A program made the position numbers. A DNA stretch of 64,000 nucleotides, taken from NCBI GenBank assembly GCA_039588295.1, contig JBDHAB010000007.1, forward strand, positions 1 through 64,000, written 5' to 3'. Within the stretch, counting starts at the first letter, position 1, and each line of letters begins with the position of its first letter. Shown piece by piece: positions 9,001 to 18,000 of this stretch. This DNA comes from Gemmatimonadota bacterium. GTDB lineage: Bacteria > Gemmatimonadota > Gemmatimonadetes > Gemmatimonadales > GWC2-71-9.

Positions 9001-12000
9001 TTGCCATGAGCATGCGGGCACTACGTACCTGTTTTGCAGTGCGCACTGCCTCGAGCGGTTCCTGGCAGACCCCGCGTCGTTCGTCGGCGATCGGGTCGGA
9101 GCGCCAACACCACCGGCCACTCCCGGCACGGTGTACACCTGCCCGATGGATCCTGAGGTGCGAGAGGACGCTCCGGGGAGCTGCCCGAAATGCGGCATGG
9201 CGCTGGAGCGCGAGATGAGCACGGCCGGTCTCACTCGCACGGAATTCGTCTGCCCGCTGCATCCCGAGATTGTCCGAGAGGAGGCAGGGTCCTGCCCGAT
9301 CTGCGGGATGGCGCTCGAGCCCAGGACTGTCACGGCGGAGGACGAAGAGAATCCGGAGCTCGTGGACATGCGCCGGCGGTTTTGGGTGAGTGCGGCGCTC
9401 ACGCTTCCGGTGCTCGCCATCGCGATGGGCCACTACCTCCCTGGAGGAAATCCACTGCTCCGTGTTGCATCGCCGCAGGGGCTGTCGTGGTTGGAGTTGC
9501 TGCTCGCGTCGCCGATCGTGCTCTGGGGTGGATGGCCGTTCTTCGTACGCGGATGGCGATCGGTGGTCACCCGGAACCTGAACATGTTCACCTTGATCGG
9601 ACTCGGAGTCGGCGTCGCCTATGTGTACAGTCTCGTGGCGAAGTTCTTCCCCGAGATCTTCCCAGGGTCGTTCAGGAATGAAGAGGGCCAGGTCGGGGTC
9701 TACTTCGAGGCCGCTGCGGTGATCGTGACACTCGTGCTGCTCGGTCAGGTGCTCGAGCTCAAGGCGCGCAGTCGCACCAGCGCGGCGATCAAGGGTCTCC
9801 TCGGCTTGACGCCGAAGACGGCCAGGCGCATCGCGCAAAACGGAACGGAAGAGGATGTCCCGCTCGACGCGGTGCAGCCAGGCGACCACTTGCGCGTTCG
9901 TCCGGGTGAGAAGGTCCCGGTGGATGGGGTCGTGCTCGAGGGGGTGAGTTCCGTTGACGAGGCGATGATCACGGGTGAGCCGATTCCGGTGGAGAAGACG
10001 GCCGGCGATCGGCTTATCGGTGCCACCGTCAACGGGACAGGCTCGCTAGTGATGCGTGCCGAGAGGGTCGGAGCGGAGACGCTCTTGTCGCAGATTGTCC
10101 GCATGGTCGCGGAGGCCCAGCGGAGCCGCGCGCCCATCCAGAAGCTCGCCGATGTCGTCGCCTCGTATTTCGTCCCCGCGGTCGTCGTCATCGCAGTTGC
10201 TACCTTCGTGATCTGGGCAGTGTTTGGTCCGGAGCCCGCGATGGCGTATGCACTGATCAATGCAGTGGCAGTGCTGATCATTGCCTGCCCCTGCGCGTTG
10301 GGGCTGGCGACTCCAATGTCGATCATGGTTGCGAGCGGCAAGGGCGCCACTATGGGGGTGCTGTTCAAGAATGCCGAGGCCATCGAGATCCTGCGCAAGG
10401 TGGACACGCTGGTGGTCGACAAGACAGGCACGATCACCTTGGGAAAACCAAAGCTCGTCGAGATCGTACCTGCTCCTGGGTGGAGCGACGTGGAGGTCCT
10501 CGCCTTCGCTGCGAGCCTCGAGCGTGGTAGTGAGCATCCCCTCGCGGCTGCCATTGTCGAGGGAGCGGAGGACCGCAACGTGCCAACGGCGAAGGCCGAG
10601 TCGTTCGACTCAGTGACGGGAAAAGGAGTGGTGGGGACGGTGACCGGCCGAGCTGTCGCGCTCGGCAACAGCAAGCTCATGCAAGAAGTTGGTGTTGCCG
10701 TTGAGACCATGACGGCCGAGGCCGAGCGCCAACGAGCGGACGGGCAGACGGTGATGTTCGTGGCCGTGGATGGGGGACTCGTCGGCCTGGTGGGAGTCGC
10801 GGACCCGGTGAAGGAAACGACACCACAGGCGATCGAGCATCTACGGGCGGCAGGAGTTCGCATCACGATGCTTACCGGTGACAGTCGTACCACGGCCCAA
10901 GCCGTGGCGCGCAAGCTCGGGATCGACGAAGTGATTGCTGAGGTTTTGCCTGACCAGAAAGCCGATGTCATCAAGGGTTTGCAACAGCAGGGGCGCGTGG
11001 TGGCGATGGCCGGCGACGGGATCAACGATGCGCCGGCCCTCGCACAAGCAGAAGTTGGGATTGCCATGGGGACGGGCACAGACGTCGCGATGGAGAGTGC
11101 CGGTATCACGCTGGTCCGGGGGGATCTGCGGGGCATCGTGCGGGCGCGTCGCTTGAGCCGAGCGACGATGCGGAATATTCGGCAGAATCTGTTCTTCGCG
11201 TTCGTGTACAACAGCTTGGGTGTGCCTATCGCGGCGGGGATTCTCTACCCGTTCTTTGGAATCTTGTTGAGTCCCATCATCGCGGCGGCCGCCATGAGTT
11301 TTAGTTCGGTGTCCGTGGTTGGCAACGCGCTTCGCCTCCGGCGGGCGCGAGTCTAGTCCGAAGCTGGGAGGTTCGATGCGAATCAAGCCGTGGATGAAAC
11401 CCGTGATCGGTGCCGCAGCCATCGTTCTCGCGATCGCGGCAGGCTCGTGGCTCAAAGCGCGCGATGCCTTGGCCGCAGACGTGACGGTCTATACCACTCC
11501 CACTTGCGGCTGCTGCACCAAGTGGGCCGAATATGTCCGCGCGAACGGATTCTCGGTGAAGACGGTGTTCAGGGACAATCTGACGCCGATCAAGCGGAAG
11601 TACGACGTGAGCCCGATGCTCGAGACCTGTCACACGGCGATCGTGGACGGGTACGTCGTGGAGGGGCACGTGCCGATTGACGTGATCAGGAAACTGCTCG
11701 AGGAGCGGCCGGACGCCAAGGGCATTGCGGTGCCGGGGATGCCAGTCGGCTCACCTGGAATGGAGCAAGGCACCGTGCGCGATCGCTATAACGTCGTCCT
11801 ATTCGATGGAATGGGAGGTATGACTGTTTACGCACGTCGGTGACGGCAGCTTCGGTCAATGGCAGCTCATACACTTGCGGGTGCGCCGCCCCGGGGCGCA
11901 CCCGCAATGTTGTGTGGCACTGCGCCTGGTGCGGGCCGTGCCGGGCTTATTGCACCACCCAATTCGACAAGACTCTCAGCGTGCGGTTCCCCCAAGCAGG

Positions 12001-15000: not shown

Positions 15001-18000
15001 GATGCCGTACCCGTCGAGGTACAGGCCGTGCACCATGTCGGTGGCGATCAAATCGAGGGTTACACGGTCACCGCGATTGACTCTGATGACCGCCGGTGTG
15101 AAGGCAAAACTCGCCGCCTCGACGCTGACCTGCCGCTCGACGGGCTTCCGGAGCTGTGGGGGGACCGGTGCAGCGATGATGACGAGCGCAGCGAGGGCCC
15201 CAAGAACGTGTGTCCGATGCGTAGAAGCCGCACGGCGGAGCCACGTCGGCAGCGCTGCTGCCCGATCGTCACGCACCGGGGTCATGCCACAGGCTCAGGG
15301 GGGCGCGACCGCCCCGGTCGGTGGGCCGTACCGCGAGTATCTGCTGTGGACGAACGACTGGATTTCGCTCAGTTGCGCTTGCTGCCGCATGAGCCGCATG
15401 ACGTCCTGTGCTATGTCGACGCAGATGGAACAACCCAGCGCGTGGCTGTCGAATTCGAGCGCCCCCTCTTCGGTGGGGGAGGCGAAGCAGCTCAAGTTTG
15501 AGGTGTGTCCCATCGTCCCGCACCCGCAGTAGCAAGGGATCTCCTGGAGGATCTCCGGGTTCGCCACGGCGAAGAGATACGCGTCGCGGACCGCAAGTGC
15601 CGCCGATTGAATCTCCACAGGTAGATGATCGGGGTCCGCCATCGCAATCGGCTCGTGCCGGTCCCCGTCGCCGCCAGCGCACGCCGTCACAAACGCGGCC
15701 AGGATCCGAAGAGGAGCGGAGCAGCTGACAATCGGTGATGACGTCGGTCCGCTATCCGCATATCGGCCTCCGAATGATGTTGAGACGTTGAGCACCCAAC
15801 GGTGACATGATGCACCCCGCACACAGGCTGCGCCGTCGGGGTGGTTCACGGGATCCACGTCACGGACGGTGCTGTTTCAGCGGCGGAAATGGGCGGGGGC
15901 CCGTCACTGGCTGGGGAGGAACCACCTGCCAAGTGTCTCGACCAGGACGAGGCCCACCACCCGCACTCCCGCTACCTCACTTTGAGCCGCCGTTGAATGT
16001 GTTGATGTACGCGAGGATGGCCTCGACTTCCTCGGAGGTCAGTCCAAAGTTGGGCATCATCGACGTTGAGCTATCGAACGTTGGATCGGCCATCTTGCGA
16101 CGCAAATAGGTCGGTCCCCTGCGTCCAACCACGCCGTTCAGTGAGGGGCCCACCTGTCCACCGGCGGATCCAACCACGTGACATCCGAGGCATGCCTTCT
16201 GATCGACTAAGTCCTTGCCGCGGGCTATCACCTCCGGATTGGTCGAGGCGGCGCCCTCAGGAACGGTCGATGGTACCCGCGCCTTCCGTTCTCCGGTCGG
16301 TAGCGGTACTGCTTGACCCGGATCGGTGTTCGTCGCCTGCAGAAAGGCAAGCACACTTCGGACTTGGCCACCGGTCATATTACCCCGAGTCCGCATGTGG
16401 TTCAGAATCGTGACCCAATCACGATCGGTGCGCTCCAGCGGTGATCGCGGATTGTGACAACGACCGCAGAGATCTCCGTAGGCGCGCGCACCGGCTGCGA
16501 CGGTCCCATCTTGGACTTGCGTCTGGGCAGAAGCCGGCACTGTGGCTGCCGTCGCGAAGGCGAGTGCGACAGCCCACAGCCATGCCTTGCTTGAGTTTGC
16601 CATCGTCTCCCCTCCTAGAATCCAAACGCGATGTGGATCACAGCGCGATCGTTGTCAATTTCGGTTCCCTGCTCGCGGTTGAGCTCGTAAGCGCCCATTA
16701 CTGCGATCGAAGGACTGAACCAATAGTCGAGGGCAACGGCGGCCTGCCACGCGCCCTCATCCTGGACCACGCCATCGAGCTCCGTGTCGAAGACCTGCGT
16801 CCACCGCACAATGGGCTCCCAGGCTCTCCACCGATACGCGAGCTGGGCGTAGTAGCCATGACGCTTCAGTACCTCGAATCCCGTGAGCGTTTCGACTTCC
16901 TGCCGAGTCTGGATGTACTCGCCGCGCAACTCGACGCTGGCGCGGCGCAACTCCGCCGCCACGTTCCAGCCAGTGAAGTCGAGCACGTTTTGCTCGTCAT
17001 AATCCCCGTTGAGGTATGAGATGTTCACTTCCGCCCAGGGGGGAAGTGCTATGTCGATCCGTCCCCCGAACAGCTTGTCCGTGTTGTTGTCACTCGACGA
17101 TGCCGGAATCTCCAATTCGGCAACGTCTCCCGGAGCACTGACCTCGCCAGCCGGTCCGTTGGTGGCGTAGCCTGTCACGCCGAGGTGCCACGGACCTGGC
17201 GTCACGGCACCACGCAGCATCACACCAACGTCCGACAGCACGGGAATGATCGGCTCCGCTCCGAATTCGGAGACGTGGTGGCCGTAGAGGGGTGGTGCCG
17301 TTGGGAACTTGTTGATCCAGGTGGGATGCAGGCGCTCCCCGAAGACCCCAAAAGGAAGCAGGAACTTCCCCCCCACAAGTGTCACGTTGTCGCTGAGCAG
17401 TACGTCGATCTGCGCATACTCAAGCCCTGTTTCGGTCACGCCTCCAGTCAACTCGAACTCGAATTCCGCCTCGAAGAGCACCTTGTCCTGGAACTGATAG
17501 AGGAATACGGGACTCACGCTGGCGGTGAACTCGTTTTGGTTCTCACCTTCCGGGCGAAACGCGTATCCCACCGTCCCGTAGCCAGAAAGCACGACGTTGT
17601 GCGTGGGAACGACGCGAGCGCCGAGAGCCTGTTGGGCGTGGGCGGATCGAGCGGTGAACAGCAGTGCCACCGCAGTCGCCCCCAGCAGCAGCCTTCCCTT
17701 AGATGAACTAGTGACCATGTCCCGGTCCTCCGTGGTCGTCGCCGGTGTCGCCGGACTCCGTCATCACCGGGATATGGAATTCGCCTTCCTCGTGGTCGGC
17801 GCCAACCAGGATCTCGACGTGCAGCTCATAGACGCCGGCTGCGCCGAAGGCAAACTCGCCATCGTACTCTCCGATGTTCTCTTCCTGAACCGATAGCGCC
17901 GTTTCGCTGTCGTCAGGTGCATGGATGGCCATCTCGACGTCCAACCCGGTGACCAGATCCGCAGGCAGGCCGTCGGTCCCGACGTCGTACACGAGCACGC

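What a model noticed while it worked through the whole genome (the two positions that open the first line are those of the whole stretch)
11947..16603. A Cys-Sec (GCUPP) Ig-fold selenoprotein tied to a CuA-cupredoxin / cytochrome c / polyferredoxin gene cluster
The two gene calls g01306 and g01305 are one gene (C7:11947-12420, minus strand, 157 codons) read through an in-frame TGA: a small secreted DUF1573/HYDIN-like Ig-fold protein whose invariant motif E/A-G-C-C-P-P has selenocysteine as the second residue of the vicinal pair (AGCUPP). A SECIS-type hairpin follows the UGA. The same Sec form occurs in 36 other species genomes (mostly Anaerolineae, also Gemmatimonadaceae, Acidobacteria, Actinomycetes) and the gene mostly lies beside two CuA-type cupredoxin proteins and a CcoG/NosR-like polyferredoxin, so it is predicted to be a selenium-using copper-handling partner of that periplasmic CuA module. 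It is not covered by any NCBIfam selenoprotein mode [...]
Evidence so far: Pfam HYDIN_VesB_CFA65-like_Ig stops at model position 37/100 at the TGA and the 60-codon extension completes the domain; translation with TGA=U gives one 157-aa frame. Database relatives: 8 longer proteins (42-59% id) all have G-C-C-P-P at the aligned place; a 79%-identical protein from another assembly is cut off exactly at ..AGC. Pattern TGA-CCN-CCN..GAY-GGN-CCN-CAY-GAY-TT in the one-genome-per-species collection: 39 hits, 36 with Cys just before the TGA, open frame >=51 (35 of 36 >=95) codons upstream and 46-63 (34 of 36: 59-60) downstream ending ..VLSNWVP. Hairpin ACCAUCG-GUU-CGAUGGU or a variant lies 12-13 nt after the UGA in all 37 sequences (part of the minimum-energy fold in 36 of 37 [...]
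(Added by a program. Inside this text positions count along the whole contig: contig position 1 is position 1 of the stretch shown here. "Call 12" and the like, gene names such as g00115 and contig names such as C1 are that model's own, and its searches are not shown. The text may have been shortened before it was handed on; [...] marks where a part breaks off. The agent that wrote the report below was given it as the finding of a first reader that could run no searches.)

Follow-up and report, generated by a model that had tools for sequence, protein, structure and literature searches.

The report
Cys-Sec Ig-fold selenoprotein in copper operon
A small exported bacterial protein is made by reading a stop codon as selenocysteine right next to a cysteine, and it sits in a conserved gene cluster for copper proteins, so it probably uses selenium to handle copper outside the cell membrane.

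Summary
Window 11947-12420 (-) is one 157-codon gene with a single in-frame TGA (U97, AGCUPP).

Evidence for Sec decoding:
- Among 64 family copies, 38 have TGA and 26 have Cys at that codon.
- A 6-8 bp hairpin with a GUU/GGU loop lies 11-12 nt after the codon. All 38 TGA forms have it; 3 of 26 Cys forms do.
- Five of its 8 stem pairs show compensatory changes.
- The genome encodes SelA, SelB, SelD and tRNA-Sec.
- SelB is present in 34 of 35 Sec-form genomes.

The protein is a lipoprotein or membrane-anchored PapD/HYDIN-like Ig domain. It is homologous to the known DUF1573 selenoprotein OS_HP2 (UxC), but its Sec sits one residue later, in a vicinal C-U-P-P motif. It fails the OS_HP2 model (12.8 bits against a cut-off of 100). 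I class it as a new Sec subfamily.

The tightest neighbour is a PCYCGC/CYCXC (OS_HP4) Cys-rich protein, not the cupredoxins: 34 of 35 well-flanked loci. Two CuA-motif cupredoxins and a NapH-like polyferredoxin follow, and CopA is often nearby.

A copper-handling role is plausible but rests only on gene context and on conserved Cys/Sec/Met/His residues. Earlier notes of this scan covered this same stretch.

The parts
11947..12420 (-). Selenoprotein gene, 157 codons, GTG start, TAA stop. Its GTG overlaps the TGA stop of the upstream cupredoxin/cytochrome c gene by 4 nt (GTGA).
12130..12132 (-). In-frame UGA, read as Sec97, the second residue of the vicinal C96-U97 pair in AGCUPP.
   Evidence: The same codon is TGA in 38 and TGC/TGT in 26 of 64 family copies.
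12100..12118 (-). SECIS-like hairpin GACCAUCG-GGU-CGAUGGUC, starting 11 nt after the UGA. It is encoded by the peptide T-I-G-S-M-V.
12325..12420 (-). N-terminal export signal: an Arg-rich stretch, a hydrophobic helix, and the lipobox-like V-L-A-C32.
   Evidence: Read. AF2 predicts a helix at residues 14-31. The same-genus ortholog has L-V-V-S-G-C. The lipobox pattern is recalled from memory; no predictor was run.
11956..12279 (-). PapD/HYDIN/DUF1573-like Ig domain, residues 48-155, carrying G95-C96-U97-P98, M122, M126, G128 and H130.
12417..13562 (-). Cupredoxin with a CuA-type ligand pattern (H..C-T-R-W-C-G-P-D-H-W-R-M) fused to a C-terminal cytochrome c (CAACH).
13433..14926 (-). Membrane polyferredoxin of the NapH/MauN type: Fer4_5 domain, two CxxCP motifs, and one CxxCxxCxxxCP motif.
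14791..15285 (-). Membrane-anchored cupredoxin with a CuA-type ligand pattern (H..C-S-V-T-C-G-A-L-H-P-F-M). Its best NCBIfam hits are to the C-terminal CuA domain of NosZ.
15295..15858 (-). PCYCGC / CYCXC-family (OS_HP4) Cys-rich lipoprotein-like protein. It is the most constant neighbour of the selenoprotein gene.
15977..16603 (-). Monohaem cytochrome c.
16615..18481 (-). Porin (16615-17718) and a YtkA-like protein (17708-18481), upstream in the same direction. Among the 63 loci searched they were found only in the window.
8888..11843 (+). Convergent copA (Cu-translocating P-type ATPase with YHS and HMBD domains, 8888-11356) and a DUF411 gene (11319-11843).
11875..11907 (.). 13-bp GC-rich inverted repeat between the two convergent gene sets. 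It is a likely shared terminator.

Best explanation
Shown by computation:
- 11947-12420(-) is one gene. Its UGA97 is decoded as selenocysteine with the help of a hairpin 11-12 nt downstream.
- The product is an exported, lipid- or membrane-anchored, single PapD/HYDIN/DUF1573-type Ig domain with a vicinal Cys96-Sec97 pair (G-C-U-P-P).
- It forms a conserved gene pair with a PCYCGC/CYCXC Cys-rich protein.
- In most Sec-form genomes it ends a five-gene cassette: PCYCGC, CuA-motif cupredoxin, NapH-like polyferredoxin, CuA-motif cupredoxin/cytochrome c, then the Ig protein. A copA gene is often nearby.

Inferred:
- The thiolate/selenolate dyad, with the family-specific Met122, Met126 and His130, forms an extracytoplasmic Cu(I) site.
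- This site takes copper exported by CopA, probably together with the PCYCGC protein.
- It either hands the copper to the two CuA cupredoxins or buffers it. Sec would give tighter and faster Cu(I) exchange than Cys.

My odds: genuine Sec gene about 0.93; copper-handling role about 0.55-0.6.
For: Sec decoding:
- The codon is TGA in 38 and Cys in 26 of 64 family copies.
- The six core hairpin pairs all form in 38 of 38 TGA forms and in 3 of 26 Cys forms.
- In the hairpin helix, 93.4% of cells are paired, and 5 of 8 pairs change on both sides, for example ACC/GGU to GUC/GAC. In 0 of 500 shuffles did the covariation score of the whole two-helix structure reach the observed value. Slid controls pair only 19-57% of cells.
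- The synonymous third positions inside the stem never vary.
- The same-genus ortholog G149 keeps both the TGA and the hairpin. Substitutions downstream of the UGA still favour third codon positions (13, 6 and 23 at positions 1, 2 and 3 over 60 codons), as they do upstream.
- The window's genome has SelB at 340.9 bits, SelA at 505.9 bits, SelD at 360.2 bits (itself with one TGA) and a tRNA-Sec with anticodon tca.
- SelB scores above its cut-off in 34 of 35 Sec-form genomes and in 17 of 24 Cys-form genomes. All 7 Cys-form genomes without SelB are therefore consistent with Sec use needing the machinery.
- Two Cys forms nested in a Sec clade (L041, L052) keep a full fossil hairpin. A third, L073, keeps the six core pairs.

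Protein:
- AF2 gives pLDDT about 98 over residues 45-157.
- The best structural match is 2qsv, a DUF1573 protein, at Z 14.1.
- G95, C96 and C/U97 are invariant, and P98, M122, M126, G128 and H130 are at least 90% conserved, in 44 sequences. The Met/His block is absent from OS_HP2 relatives.

Copper context:
- Of 35 loci with at least 3.5 kb on both sides, PCYCGC is present in 34, cupredoxin/cytochrome c in 28, the small cupredoxin in 26, polyferredoxin in 23 and CopA in 13.
- Both cupredoxins carry H...CxxxCGxxHxxM.
- The window also holds copA (TIGR01511, 608 bits), a DUF411 gene and a YtkA-like gene.
Against: - No experiment shows Se insertion or metal binding.
- The protein matches no known copper-chaperone family in Pfam or NCBIfam, and the fold is generic.
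- I had no model coordinates. The claim that C96/U97 lie near M122, M126 and H130 rests only on strand-direction reasoning from the DSSP string.
- Of the 10 bare-pair loci scanned with Pfam, 5 show no copper gene within about 4.5 kb.
- A vicinal Cys-Sec pair is also a classical redox motif (thioredoxin reductase GCUG, recalled from memory), so a redox role is not excluded.
- Sec forms come mostly from one Anaerolineales clade, so the counts are not independent.
- The two cupredoxin queries sometimes hit the same ORF, so their counts overlap.
Confidence: 0.6

Rival explanations
1. Redox protein rather than metal carrier. The Cys96-Sec97 pair cycles between selenol/thiol and an eight-membered selenenylsulfide ring. 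It would keep the cysteines of the CuA sites or of the PCYCGC protein reduced, or reduce Cu(II) to Cu(I) before insertion. This would resemble Sco/TlpA-type helpers or the thioredoxin reductase GCUG tail.
For: - Most prokaryotic selenoproteins are thought to be redox proteins (PMC13188914, section 7 read).
- The homologous OS_HP2 family carries a UxC/CGC motif at the same loop.
- The neighbours are rich in Cys: the PCYCGC protein has 7 invariant Cys/His and each CuA site has 2 Cys.
- That vicinal Cys-Sec is redox-active in thioredoxin reductase is recalled from memory.
Against: - No thioredoxin-fold, CcdA/DsbD or other reductant-supply gene was found beside the gene, in the window or in the 10 bare-pair loci scanned.
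- The family-specific conserved Met122, Met126 and His130 are typical metal ligands and are not needed for a dithiol/selenol redox couple.
Confidence: 0.25
2. Binder or detoxifier of another thiophilic metal or metalloid (Hg, Ag, Cd, As, Se/Te) rather than copper. It would use the vicinal Cys-Sec pair as MerT and MerA use vicinal cysteines.
For: - Several predicted selenoproteins belong to mercury or arsenic systems (PMC13188914, Table 1 read).
- The P-type ATPases near the bare-pair loci were not typed for metal specificity.
- The vicinal cysteines of Mer proteins are recalled from memory.
Against: - No mer or ars genes appear in the window or in the scanned loci.
- The window ATPase passes the copper-specific subfamily model TIGR01511 (608 bits against a cut-off of 397).
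- The partners are CuA-motif cupredoxins.
Confidence: 0.08
3. There is no selenoprotein. The TGA is a true stop or a recent nonsense mutation, the two gene calls are separate or the gene is dead, and the hairpin is a by-product of the coded peptide.
For: - Gene callers split the frame (96-aa and 103-aa proteins ending at ..GC are on record).
- No Rfam family matches the hairpin.
Against: - The TGA sits at the same codon in 39 genes from 37 genomes, whose record titles name at least three phyla besides the window's own.
- A full-length open frame with conserved Met/His and SNWV motifs follows it.
- Third-codon-position bias continues downstream of the TGA.
- Cys forms that code similar peptides (TIGSMS, TIGSMT) lack the hairpin because they use other codons.
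- The Sec machinery is present.
Confidence: 0.03

Closest known systems
OS_HP2 / 'DUF1573 domain-containing protein' selenoprotein (NCBIfam NF041425; pfam07610; motif UxC/UGC). Sources: PMC2398784, table passage seen; PMC13188914, Table 1 read.
   Same: - Homologous Ig-like domain (hhalign probability 99.4%, E 6.7e-22).
- Both are exported.
- The Sec lies in the same loop after the same strand.
- Both have Sec/Cys-paired forms.
   Different: - The OS_HP2 Sec aligns with our Cys96. Our Sec97 aligns with its Gly, and its second Cys aligns with our Pro98.
- The motif is a vicinal C-U-P-P, not U-G-C-T.
- Our family adds a 5-residue insert and a conserved M-x-x-x-M-x-G-x-H block.
- It scores 12.8 bits against a cut-off of 100.
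- The gene context differs.
CYCXC / PCYCGC family (seleno)protein (OS_HP4; NF041379; PF13798)
   Same: - A small exported Cys-rich protein of unknown function, known to have Sec forms.
- It is the obligate neighbour here (34 of 35 loci).
- In L023 the neighbour itself carries an in-frame TGA in the C-x-x-C position.
   Different: - Unrelated fold and family.
- The window copy is an all-Cys form (68.5 bits against a cut-off of 90; Pfam 80.9 bits).
Extracytoplasmic CuA/copper chaperones PCuAC, Sco and YtkA/CtaK (properties recalled from memory)
   Same: - Small membrane- or lipid-anchored beta-sandwich proteins encoded next to CuA proteins or copA.
- They use Cys, Met and His ligands.
- This is the working analogy for function.
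   Different: - No sequence match to their families.
- A vicinal Cys-Sec ligand pair is not known in them.
- No binding data exist.
Thioredoxin reductase C-terminal G-C-U-G redox centre (recalled from memory)
   Same: A Gly-Cys-Sec vicinal pair.
   Different: - In thioredoxin reductase the pair is a flexible C-terminal tail of a cytosolic flavoenzyme.
- Here it is an internal loop of an exported Ig domain, followed by Pro-Pro.
Other predicted metal-linked selenoproteins with a CU motif (MbdU NF045648, SaoC NF040734, KCU-star NF033934, CopZ-like form 2; PMC13188914, Table 1 read)
   Same: An adjacent Cys-Sec pair, proposed as a metal ligand.
   Different: None of their NCBIfam models matches the protein, even at E<=10. 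Their folds and gene contexts differ.

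Membership tests
Bacterial selenoprotein gene (SelB/SECIS-dependent UGA decoding) | In-frame UGA aligned with Cys in homologs | tested here: met
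   38 TGA against 26 TGC/TGT at one codon in 64 copies. Eight database relatives carry GCCPP.
Bacterial selenoprotein gene (SelB/SECIS-dependent UGA decoding) | Stem-loop shortly downstream of the UGA, conserved and covarying, specific to the UGA forms | tested here: met
   Six core pairs form in 38 of 38 Sec forms and 3 of 26 Cys forms. Five of 8 pairs show compensatory changes, and 0 of 500 shuffles reach the covariation score of the whole two-helix structure. The window fold has z = -2.5. The fit to the E. coli-type SECIS consensus (spacing, G/U in the loop) is judged from memory only.
Bacterial selenoprotein gene (SelB/SECIS-dependent UGA decoding) | Genome encodes SelA, SelB, SelD and tRNA-Sec | tested here: met
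   all four score above their cut-offs, and ARAGORN finds tRNA-SeC(tca). SelB is present in 34 of 35 other Sec-form genomes.
Bacterial selenoprotein gene (SelB/SECIS-dependent UGA decoding) | Selenium found in the protein | not testable with these tools
   Needs 75Se labelling or mass spectrometry.
OS_HP2 (NF041425) | Score at or above the curated cut-off of 100 bits | tested here: not met
   12.8 bits, E 0.12.
OS_HP2 (NF041425) | U-x-C / C-G-C motif with Sec at the first position | tested here: not met
   The motif here is C-U-P-P. In the profile alignment the OS_HP2 Sec column is our Cys96.
OS_HP2 (NF041425) | DUF1573-type Ig domain | tested here: met
   hhalign probability 99.4%. 2qsv matches at Z 14.1. 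For the window protein, Pfam DUF1573 scores 23.4 bits, just under the 26.1 cut-off, while PF22544 passes at 34.5. Cys-form relatives pass DUF1573.
Known copper chaperones (PCuAC DUF461, Sco, CopC, CusF, YtkA) | Match to the family profile | tested here: not met
   No such Pfam or NCBIfam hit for the protein.
Known copper chaperones (PCuAC DUF461, Sco, CopC, CusF, YtkA) | Copper binding and transfer | not testable with these tools
   Inferred only from conserved Cys/Sec/Met/His residues and from gene context.
CuA-type cupredoxin (the two neighbours) | COX2-type cupredoxin domain with H...C-x-x-x-C-G-x-x-H-x-x-M ligands | tested here: met
   PF00116 scores 28.3 and 34.6 bits (cut-off 22). The motifs were read. 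The ligand pattern itself is recalled from memory. The Glu of C-x-E-x-C is replaced by Arg in one protein and by Val in the other.
CcoG / NosR / NapH (the polyferredoxin neighbour) | Score above the family cut-off or the full domain architecture | tested here: not met
   Only Fer4_5 passes (36.1 bits). NapH/MauN scores 31.9 against 213, and NosR 16.8 against 1000. It is a related membrane polyferredoxin, not a shown member.

The most novel reading that the evidence does not exclude
The Cys-Sec dyad with Met122, Met126 and His130 would bind copper as a natural selenolate-ligated copper centre. This centre would be the terminal or catalytic site of a so far undescribed extracytoplasmic electron-transfer chain: quinol, then NapH-like polyferredoxin, then CuA cupredoxin, then CuA cupredoxin/cytochrome c, then the Ig-CU protein. 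Such a chain could act as a cupric reductase, a Cu(I) oxidase or another small-molecule oxidoreductase that has no known catalytic subunit in the operon. The PCYCGC protein would be its assembly factor.
Probability: 0.12. Interest if true: 0.85.

Novelty: new variant of a known kind. Interest (0 to 1): 0.58.

Why it matters
- It adds a well-supported selenoprotein subfamily that current annotation pipelines cut in two. NCBI and other records end at ..GC. No NCBIfam 20.0 model covers it, and it is not among the 119 families and subfamilies in Table 1 of the 2026 review.
- It shows two independent uses of Sec at neighbouring residues of one loop in the DUF1573 fold.
- The SECIS hairpin is a palindrome that dictates the peptide T-I-G-S-M-V, and it decays after Sec-to-Cys reversion.
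- It links two orphan families, DUF1573-like and PCYCGC/OS_HP4, to copper export and to CuA proteins. This gives both a testable function and offers a natural system for asking what selenium adds to a copper site.

Tried and rejected
- Complex prediction of the Ig protein with its PCYCGC neighbour. A natural Cys-form pair from one genome (L024, alignments A8 and A7) gave no verdict: scores 0.17 and 0.19 against a mark of 0.32. This is neither for nor against binding.
- The search for related loci with alignment A1 found no conserved stretch. It was repeated with A2.
- Rfam scan of 11800-12600 at E<=1: no match.
- Foldseek PDB and VIA-align wide searches returned only generic PapD/HYDIN/ASH Ig domains and the DUF1573 structure 2qsv. 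No copper chaperone appeared among the rows shown.
- Sequencing runs: no RNA holder was listed. Only 4 DNA metagenome runs held the stretch, with word shares of 0.05-0.39. No reads were laid.
- The Pfam scan of 88 ORFs around 10 bare-pair loci found no thioredoxin, CcdA or DsbD genes.
- Literature searches for OS_HP2, DUF1573, PCYCGC, selenoprotein+cupredoxin, and selenocysteine+copper chaperone found no description of this family. Word searches inside PMC13188914 for HYDIN, PF22544, CUPP, cupredoxin and vicinal gave nothing. Its supplements could not be read.

Full report
OBSERVATION. On the minus strand, 11947-12420 translates as one 157-residue frame if the single in-frame TGA (12132-12130) is read through..RFLDAPWVKAVAGC-U-PPIPTIGSMVLEPG..MDGPHDFRV..VLSNWVVQ*. 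Under table 11 the frame falls into two ORFs. On the full protein, Pfam PF22544 (HYDIN/VesB-like Ig) covers residues 48-140, profile positions 1-88 of 100. On the 96-residue fragment that ends at ..AGC it covers only profile positions 1-37. The GTG start overlaps the TGA stop of the upstream gene (GTGA). A 13-bp GC-rich inverted repeat at 11875-11907 separates the gene from the convergent copA-DUF411 pair.

IS THE UGA A SELENOCYSTEINE CODON? A word-based protein search returned 8 relatives at 43-62% identity, all with G-C-C-P-P at the aligned place. It also returned a 79%-identical NCBI protein that ends exactly at ..AGC.

A profile search of 1.84 billion representatives gave 43 further proteins under 260 aa among the best 150. 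Of these, 39 carry G-C-C, 3 stop right after G-C, and 1 has GCRPP.

A scan of one genome per species with alignment A2 gave 64 loci. 62 of them hold the motif region, and they carry 63 gene copies. With the window that makes 64 copies: 38 have TGA and 26 have TGC/TGT at this codon. The 37 fetched Sec loci come from 35 assemblies. A same-genus genome (G149) adds one more.

Every one of the 38 TGA forms, and G149, has a hairpin in a fixed register. A 7-bp stem (mostly ACCAUCG/CGAUGGU) starts 12 nt after the UGA, often with an eighth pair, and closes a GUU loop (GGU in the window, GUG in G149). The six core pairs all form in 38 of 38 TGA forms but in only 3 of 26 Cys forms.

On the 38-sequence alignment, 93.4% of the cells of the helix are paired, and 5 of its 8 pairs change on both sides. 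Examples are ACC..GGU to GUC..GAC in L023, L058 and L064, with further variants in L030, L062 and L071. In 0 of 500 column shuffles did the whole-structure covariation score reach the observed value. Sliding the partner by 1-3 columns drops pairing to 19-57%.

The hairpin is a palindrome that codes T-I-G-S-M-V. This hexapeptide is present in 25 of 38 Sec forms and 2 of 26 Cys forms. The synonymous third positions inside the stem never vary in the Sec forms. Cys forms with similar peptides (TIGSMS, TIGSMT) use other codons and lose the stem.

Between the window and G149, substitutions downstream of the UGA fall 13, 6 and 23 on codon positions 1, 2 and 3 over 60 codons. Upstream they fall 8, 11 and 25 over 50 codons. 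The 3' part is therefore under coding selection.

The window's genome encodes SelB (340.9 bits), SelA (505.9), SelD (360.2, itself with one TGA) and a tRNA-Sec with anticodon tca. SelB scores above its cut-off in 34 of 35 other Sec-form genomes; the exception is a 2.2-Mb assembly. It does so in 17 of 24 Cys-form genomes.

A quick maximum-likelihood tree of 110 columns, many forks unresolved, needs at least 8 Sec/Cys changes, of which 2 are forced by well-supported branches. Four Cys forms (L041, L052, L055, L073) sit inside a supported Sec clade. L041 and L052 still carry the intact hairpin.

Together these are the standard criteria for a bacterial selenoprotein gene, and all of them are met. 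Only direct detection of selenium is missing. Most Sec forms belong to related Anaerolineales, so the counts are not independent events.

THE PROTEIN. The N-terminus has an Arg-rich stretch, a hydrophobic helix (residues 14-31 in the AF2 model) and V-L-A-C32. The same-genus ortholog has L-V-V-S-G-C. I read these as lipoprotein signals from a pattern I recall; no predictor was run. The Chloroflexota homologs have an uncleaved-looking N-terminal anchor instead.

Residues 45-157 fold with pLDDT about 98 into a seven-strand sandwich. The nearest solved structures are the DUF1573 protein 2qsv (Z 14.1, rmsd 2.6 A over 107 residues) and PapD/HYDIN/ASH domains.

In 44 aligned family members, G95, C96, C/U97, P110, G111 and D140 are invariant. 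P98, M122, M126, G128, H130 and N139 are at least 90% conserved. The N-x-G, P-G and N-D-P turns are shared with OS_HP2-type DUF1573 proteins. G-C-C/U-P and the M..M.G.H block are specific to this family.

From the order and lengths of the strands in the DSSP string I infer that they alternate up and down: 50-63, 68-76, 82-94, 98-109, 113-120, 128-138 and 145-155. This places the C96-U97 turn and the 121-130 Met/His segment at the same end of the sandwich, next to each other. The shared structural turns lie at the opposite end. This is inference. I could not obtain coordinates.

RELATION TO THE KNOWN DUF1573 SELENOPROTEIN. OS_HP2 was listed in the GOS study as pfam07610 with motif UxC (PMC2398784, table passage). 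The 2022 and 2026 reviews list it as 'DUF1573 domain-containing protein, UGC' (PMC9312934, passage; PMC13188914, Table 1 read in full).

I fetched OS_HP2-like genes from the window's own phylum. Three have TGA in G-T/S-U-G-C-T and the others have S-S-C-G-C-T. A profile-profile comparison shows clear homology (probability 99.4%, E 6.7e-22). It also places the OS_HP2 Sec on our Cys96, its Gly on our Sec97 and its second Cys on our Pro98.

The window protein scores 12.8 bits on NF041425 against a cut-off of 100, and it matches no other NCBIfam selenoprotein model at E<=10. Under the review's own rule, the same domain with a different Sec position or motif counts as a distinct subfamily. By that rule this is a new subfamily.

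NEIGHBOURHOOD. The window operon, all on the minus strand, runs as follows:
- an unknown 457-aa gene;
- a YtkA-like gene;
- a porin;
- cytochrome c;
- a PCYCGC/CYCXC (OS_HP4-family) protein;
- a membrane-anchored cupredoxin;
- a NapH/MauN-type polyferredoxin;
- a cupredoxin-cytochrome c fusion;
- the selenoprotein.

It ends tail-to-tail with copA (TIGR01511, 608 bits; YHS and HMBD domains) and a DUF411 gene. Both cupredoxins show the pattern H...C-x-x-x-C-G-x-x-H-x-x-M, which I recall as the CuA ligand set.

I searched the window's neighbours with phmmer against the 63 loci that carry the motif. Among the 35 loci with at least 3.5 kb on both sides, the counts are:

| Neighbour | All (of 35) | Sec (of 21) | Cys (of 14) |
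|---|---|---|---|
| PCYCGC | 34 | 20 | 14 |
| Cupredoxin-cytochrome c | 28 | 20 | 8 |
| Small cupredoxin | 26 | 20 | 6 |
| Polyferredoxin | 23 | 18 | 5 |
| CopA | 13 | 8 | 5 |

The genes nearly always lie on the same strand, and most often in the order PCYCGC, cupredoxin, polyferredoxin, cupredoxin/cytochrome c, Ig protein. The two cupredoxin queries sometimes hit one ORF, so their counts overlap. Porin, YtkA and the separate cytochrome c were found only in the window.

In the Acidimicrobiia (GCCPG subfamily), and in some Caldilineaceae and Anaerolineae, only the PCYCGC + Ig pair is kept. It lies next to a CopA-like ATPase in 5 of the 10 such loci I scanned, once with a DUF305 gene nearby. The other 5 sit in unrelated contexts.

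The PCYCGC proteins have six invariant Cys and two conserved His, one of them invariant. In L023 the PCYCGC neighbour itself has an in-frame TGA at the first Cys of its C-x-x-C. Within the window's phylum the family is patchy. I found it in 4 of 301 genomes searched: two with TGA in the window's genus, and two with Cys in another family of the same order. The window protein's nearest relative is from a record titled Acidobacteria (61% identity). This pattern suggests horizontal spread.

HOW IT MOST LIKELY WORKS. Three things are shown by computation:
- an exported Ig domain with a Cys-Sec dyad;
- SECIS-dependent decoding of the UGA;
- a conserved gene pair with PCYCGC, and a conserved cassette with two CuA-motif cupredoxins and a quinol-dehydrogenase-like polyferredoxin, often near copA.

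The rest is inferred. The dyad plus Met122, Met126 and His130 would bind Cu(I) outside the membrane. It would receive copper exported by CopA, work with the Cys/His-rich PCYCGC protein, and load or protect the CuA centres. Where the cassette is absent it would buffer copper. I give this about 0.55-0.6.

The main rival, at about 0.25, is a selenenylsulfide redox role that keeps partner cysteines reduced or reduces Cu(II). It is favoured by the general redox character of selenoproteins. It is disfavoured by the conserved Met and His residues and by the lack of any reductant-supply gene nearby. A role with another thiophilic metal (about 0.08) and a non-Sec reading (about 0.03) are weaker.

The boldest reading still open is that the operon has no recognisable catalytic subunit because the Ig protein's Cu-Se site is itself the terminal site of a new quinol-to-CuA chain. 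I give this about 0.12.

NOVELTY AND LIMITS. I found no description of this family in the library searched. It is not in Table 1 of the 2026 review (its supplements could not be read). It is not in NCBIfam 20.0. It is a new Sec-bearing subfamily within a fold already known to host Sec, so it is a new variant of a known kind.

No experiment, model coordinates or expression data were available. Earlier first-stage notes of this scan on the same stretch had flagged the TGA, the 'orphan' CuA cupredoxins and the copA-copG neighbourhood. I checked each of these here.

Noticed in passing
L023, about 8390-8760 (+), directly downstream of its GCUPP gene: The PCYCGC/CYCXC neighbour in this Anaerolinea record has its own in-frame TGA (..HALGUGICVDI..) where the other copies have C-S-I-C. 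Two adjacent selenoprotein genes therefore sit in one cassette.
   Followed up: partly
L041 8169-8216 and L052 8148-8195: These two Cys forms (TGT) keep the complete 8-bp hairpin and the peptide TIGSMV, and they sit inside a Sec clade. They look like recent Sec-to-Cys reversions with a fossil SECIS. L055 and L073 in the same clade show partial decay.
   Followed up: yes
L030, motif codons at about 6420 and 7016: One Chloroflexota contig carries two tandem paralogs about 600 nt apart, one Cys form and one Sec form. They are sisters on the tree (SH-aLRT 93).
   Followed up: partly
L086, L090 and L094 (genomes G003, G018 and G012 of the window's phylum): These OS_HP2-like DUF1573 genes have TGA in G-T/S-U-G-C-T. 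They score only 78-85 bits on NF041425, below its cut-off of 100, so the curated model would miss these Sec forms.
   Followed up: partly
G000:C1:343859-344788 (-), outside the window: The genome's selD carries one in-frame TGA, so SelD is itself a selenoprotein here.
   Followed up: no
window 12417-13562, 13433-14926 and 14791-15285: The longest ORFs of the three genes upstream of the selenoprotein overlap by about 130 nt each. The true starts of the polyferredoxin and of the cupredoxin/cytochrome c genes are probably further downstream than the first GTG.
   Followed up: no
L038 downstream and L071 upstream of the Ig gene: The flanking frames contain a ..YCRSG(R/N)MS.. stretch that looks like a rhodanese active-site loop. 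I recognised it by eye only and did not scan it.
   Followed up: no
L028 (record titled Chthoniobacteraceae, Verrucomicrobiota): Its Ig protein is almost identical to those of two Anaerolineales records (tree branch lengths 0.05-0.08). One of them, L025, comes from the same isolate series. This may be a binning error or a very recent transfer.
   Followed up: no
window 18608-19981 (-) and 19325-20146 (+): A 457-aa ORF at the head of the operon has no Pfam or NCBIfam match. A Memo-like protein gene overlaps it on the other strand.
   Followed up: no
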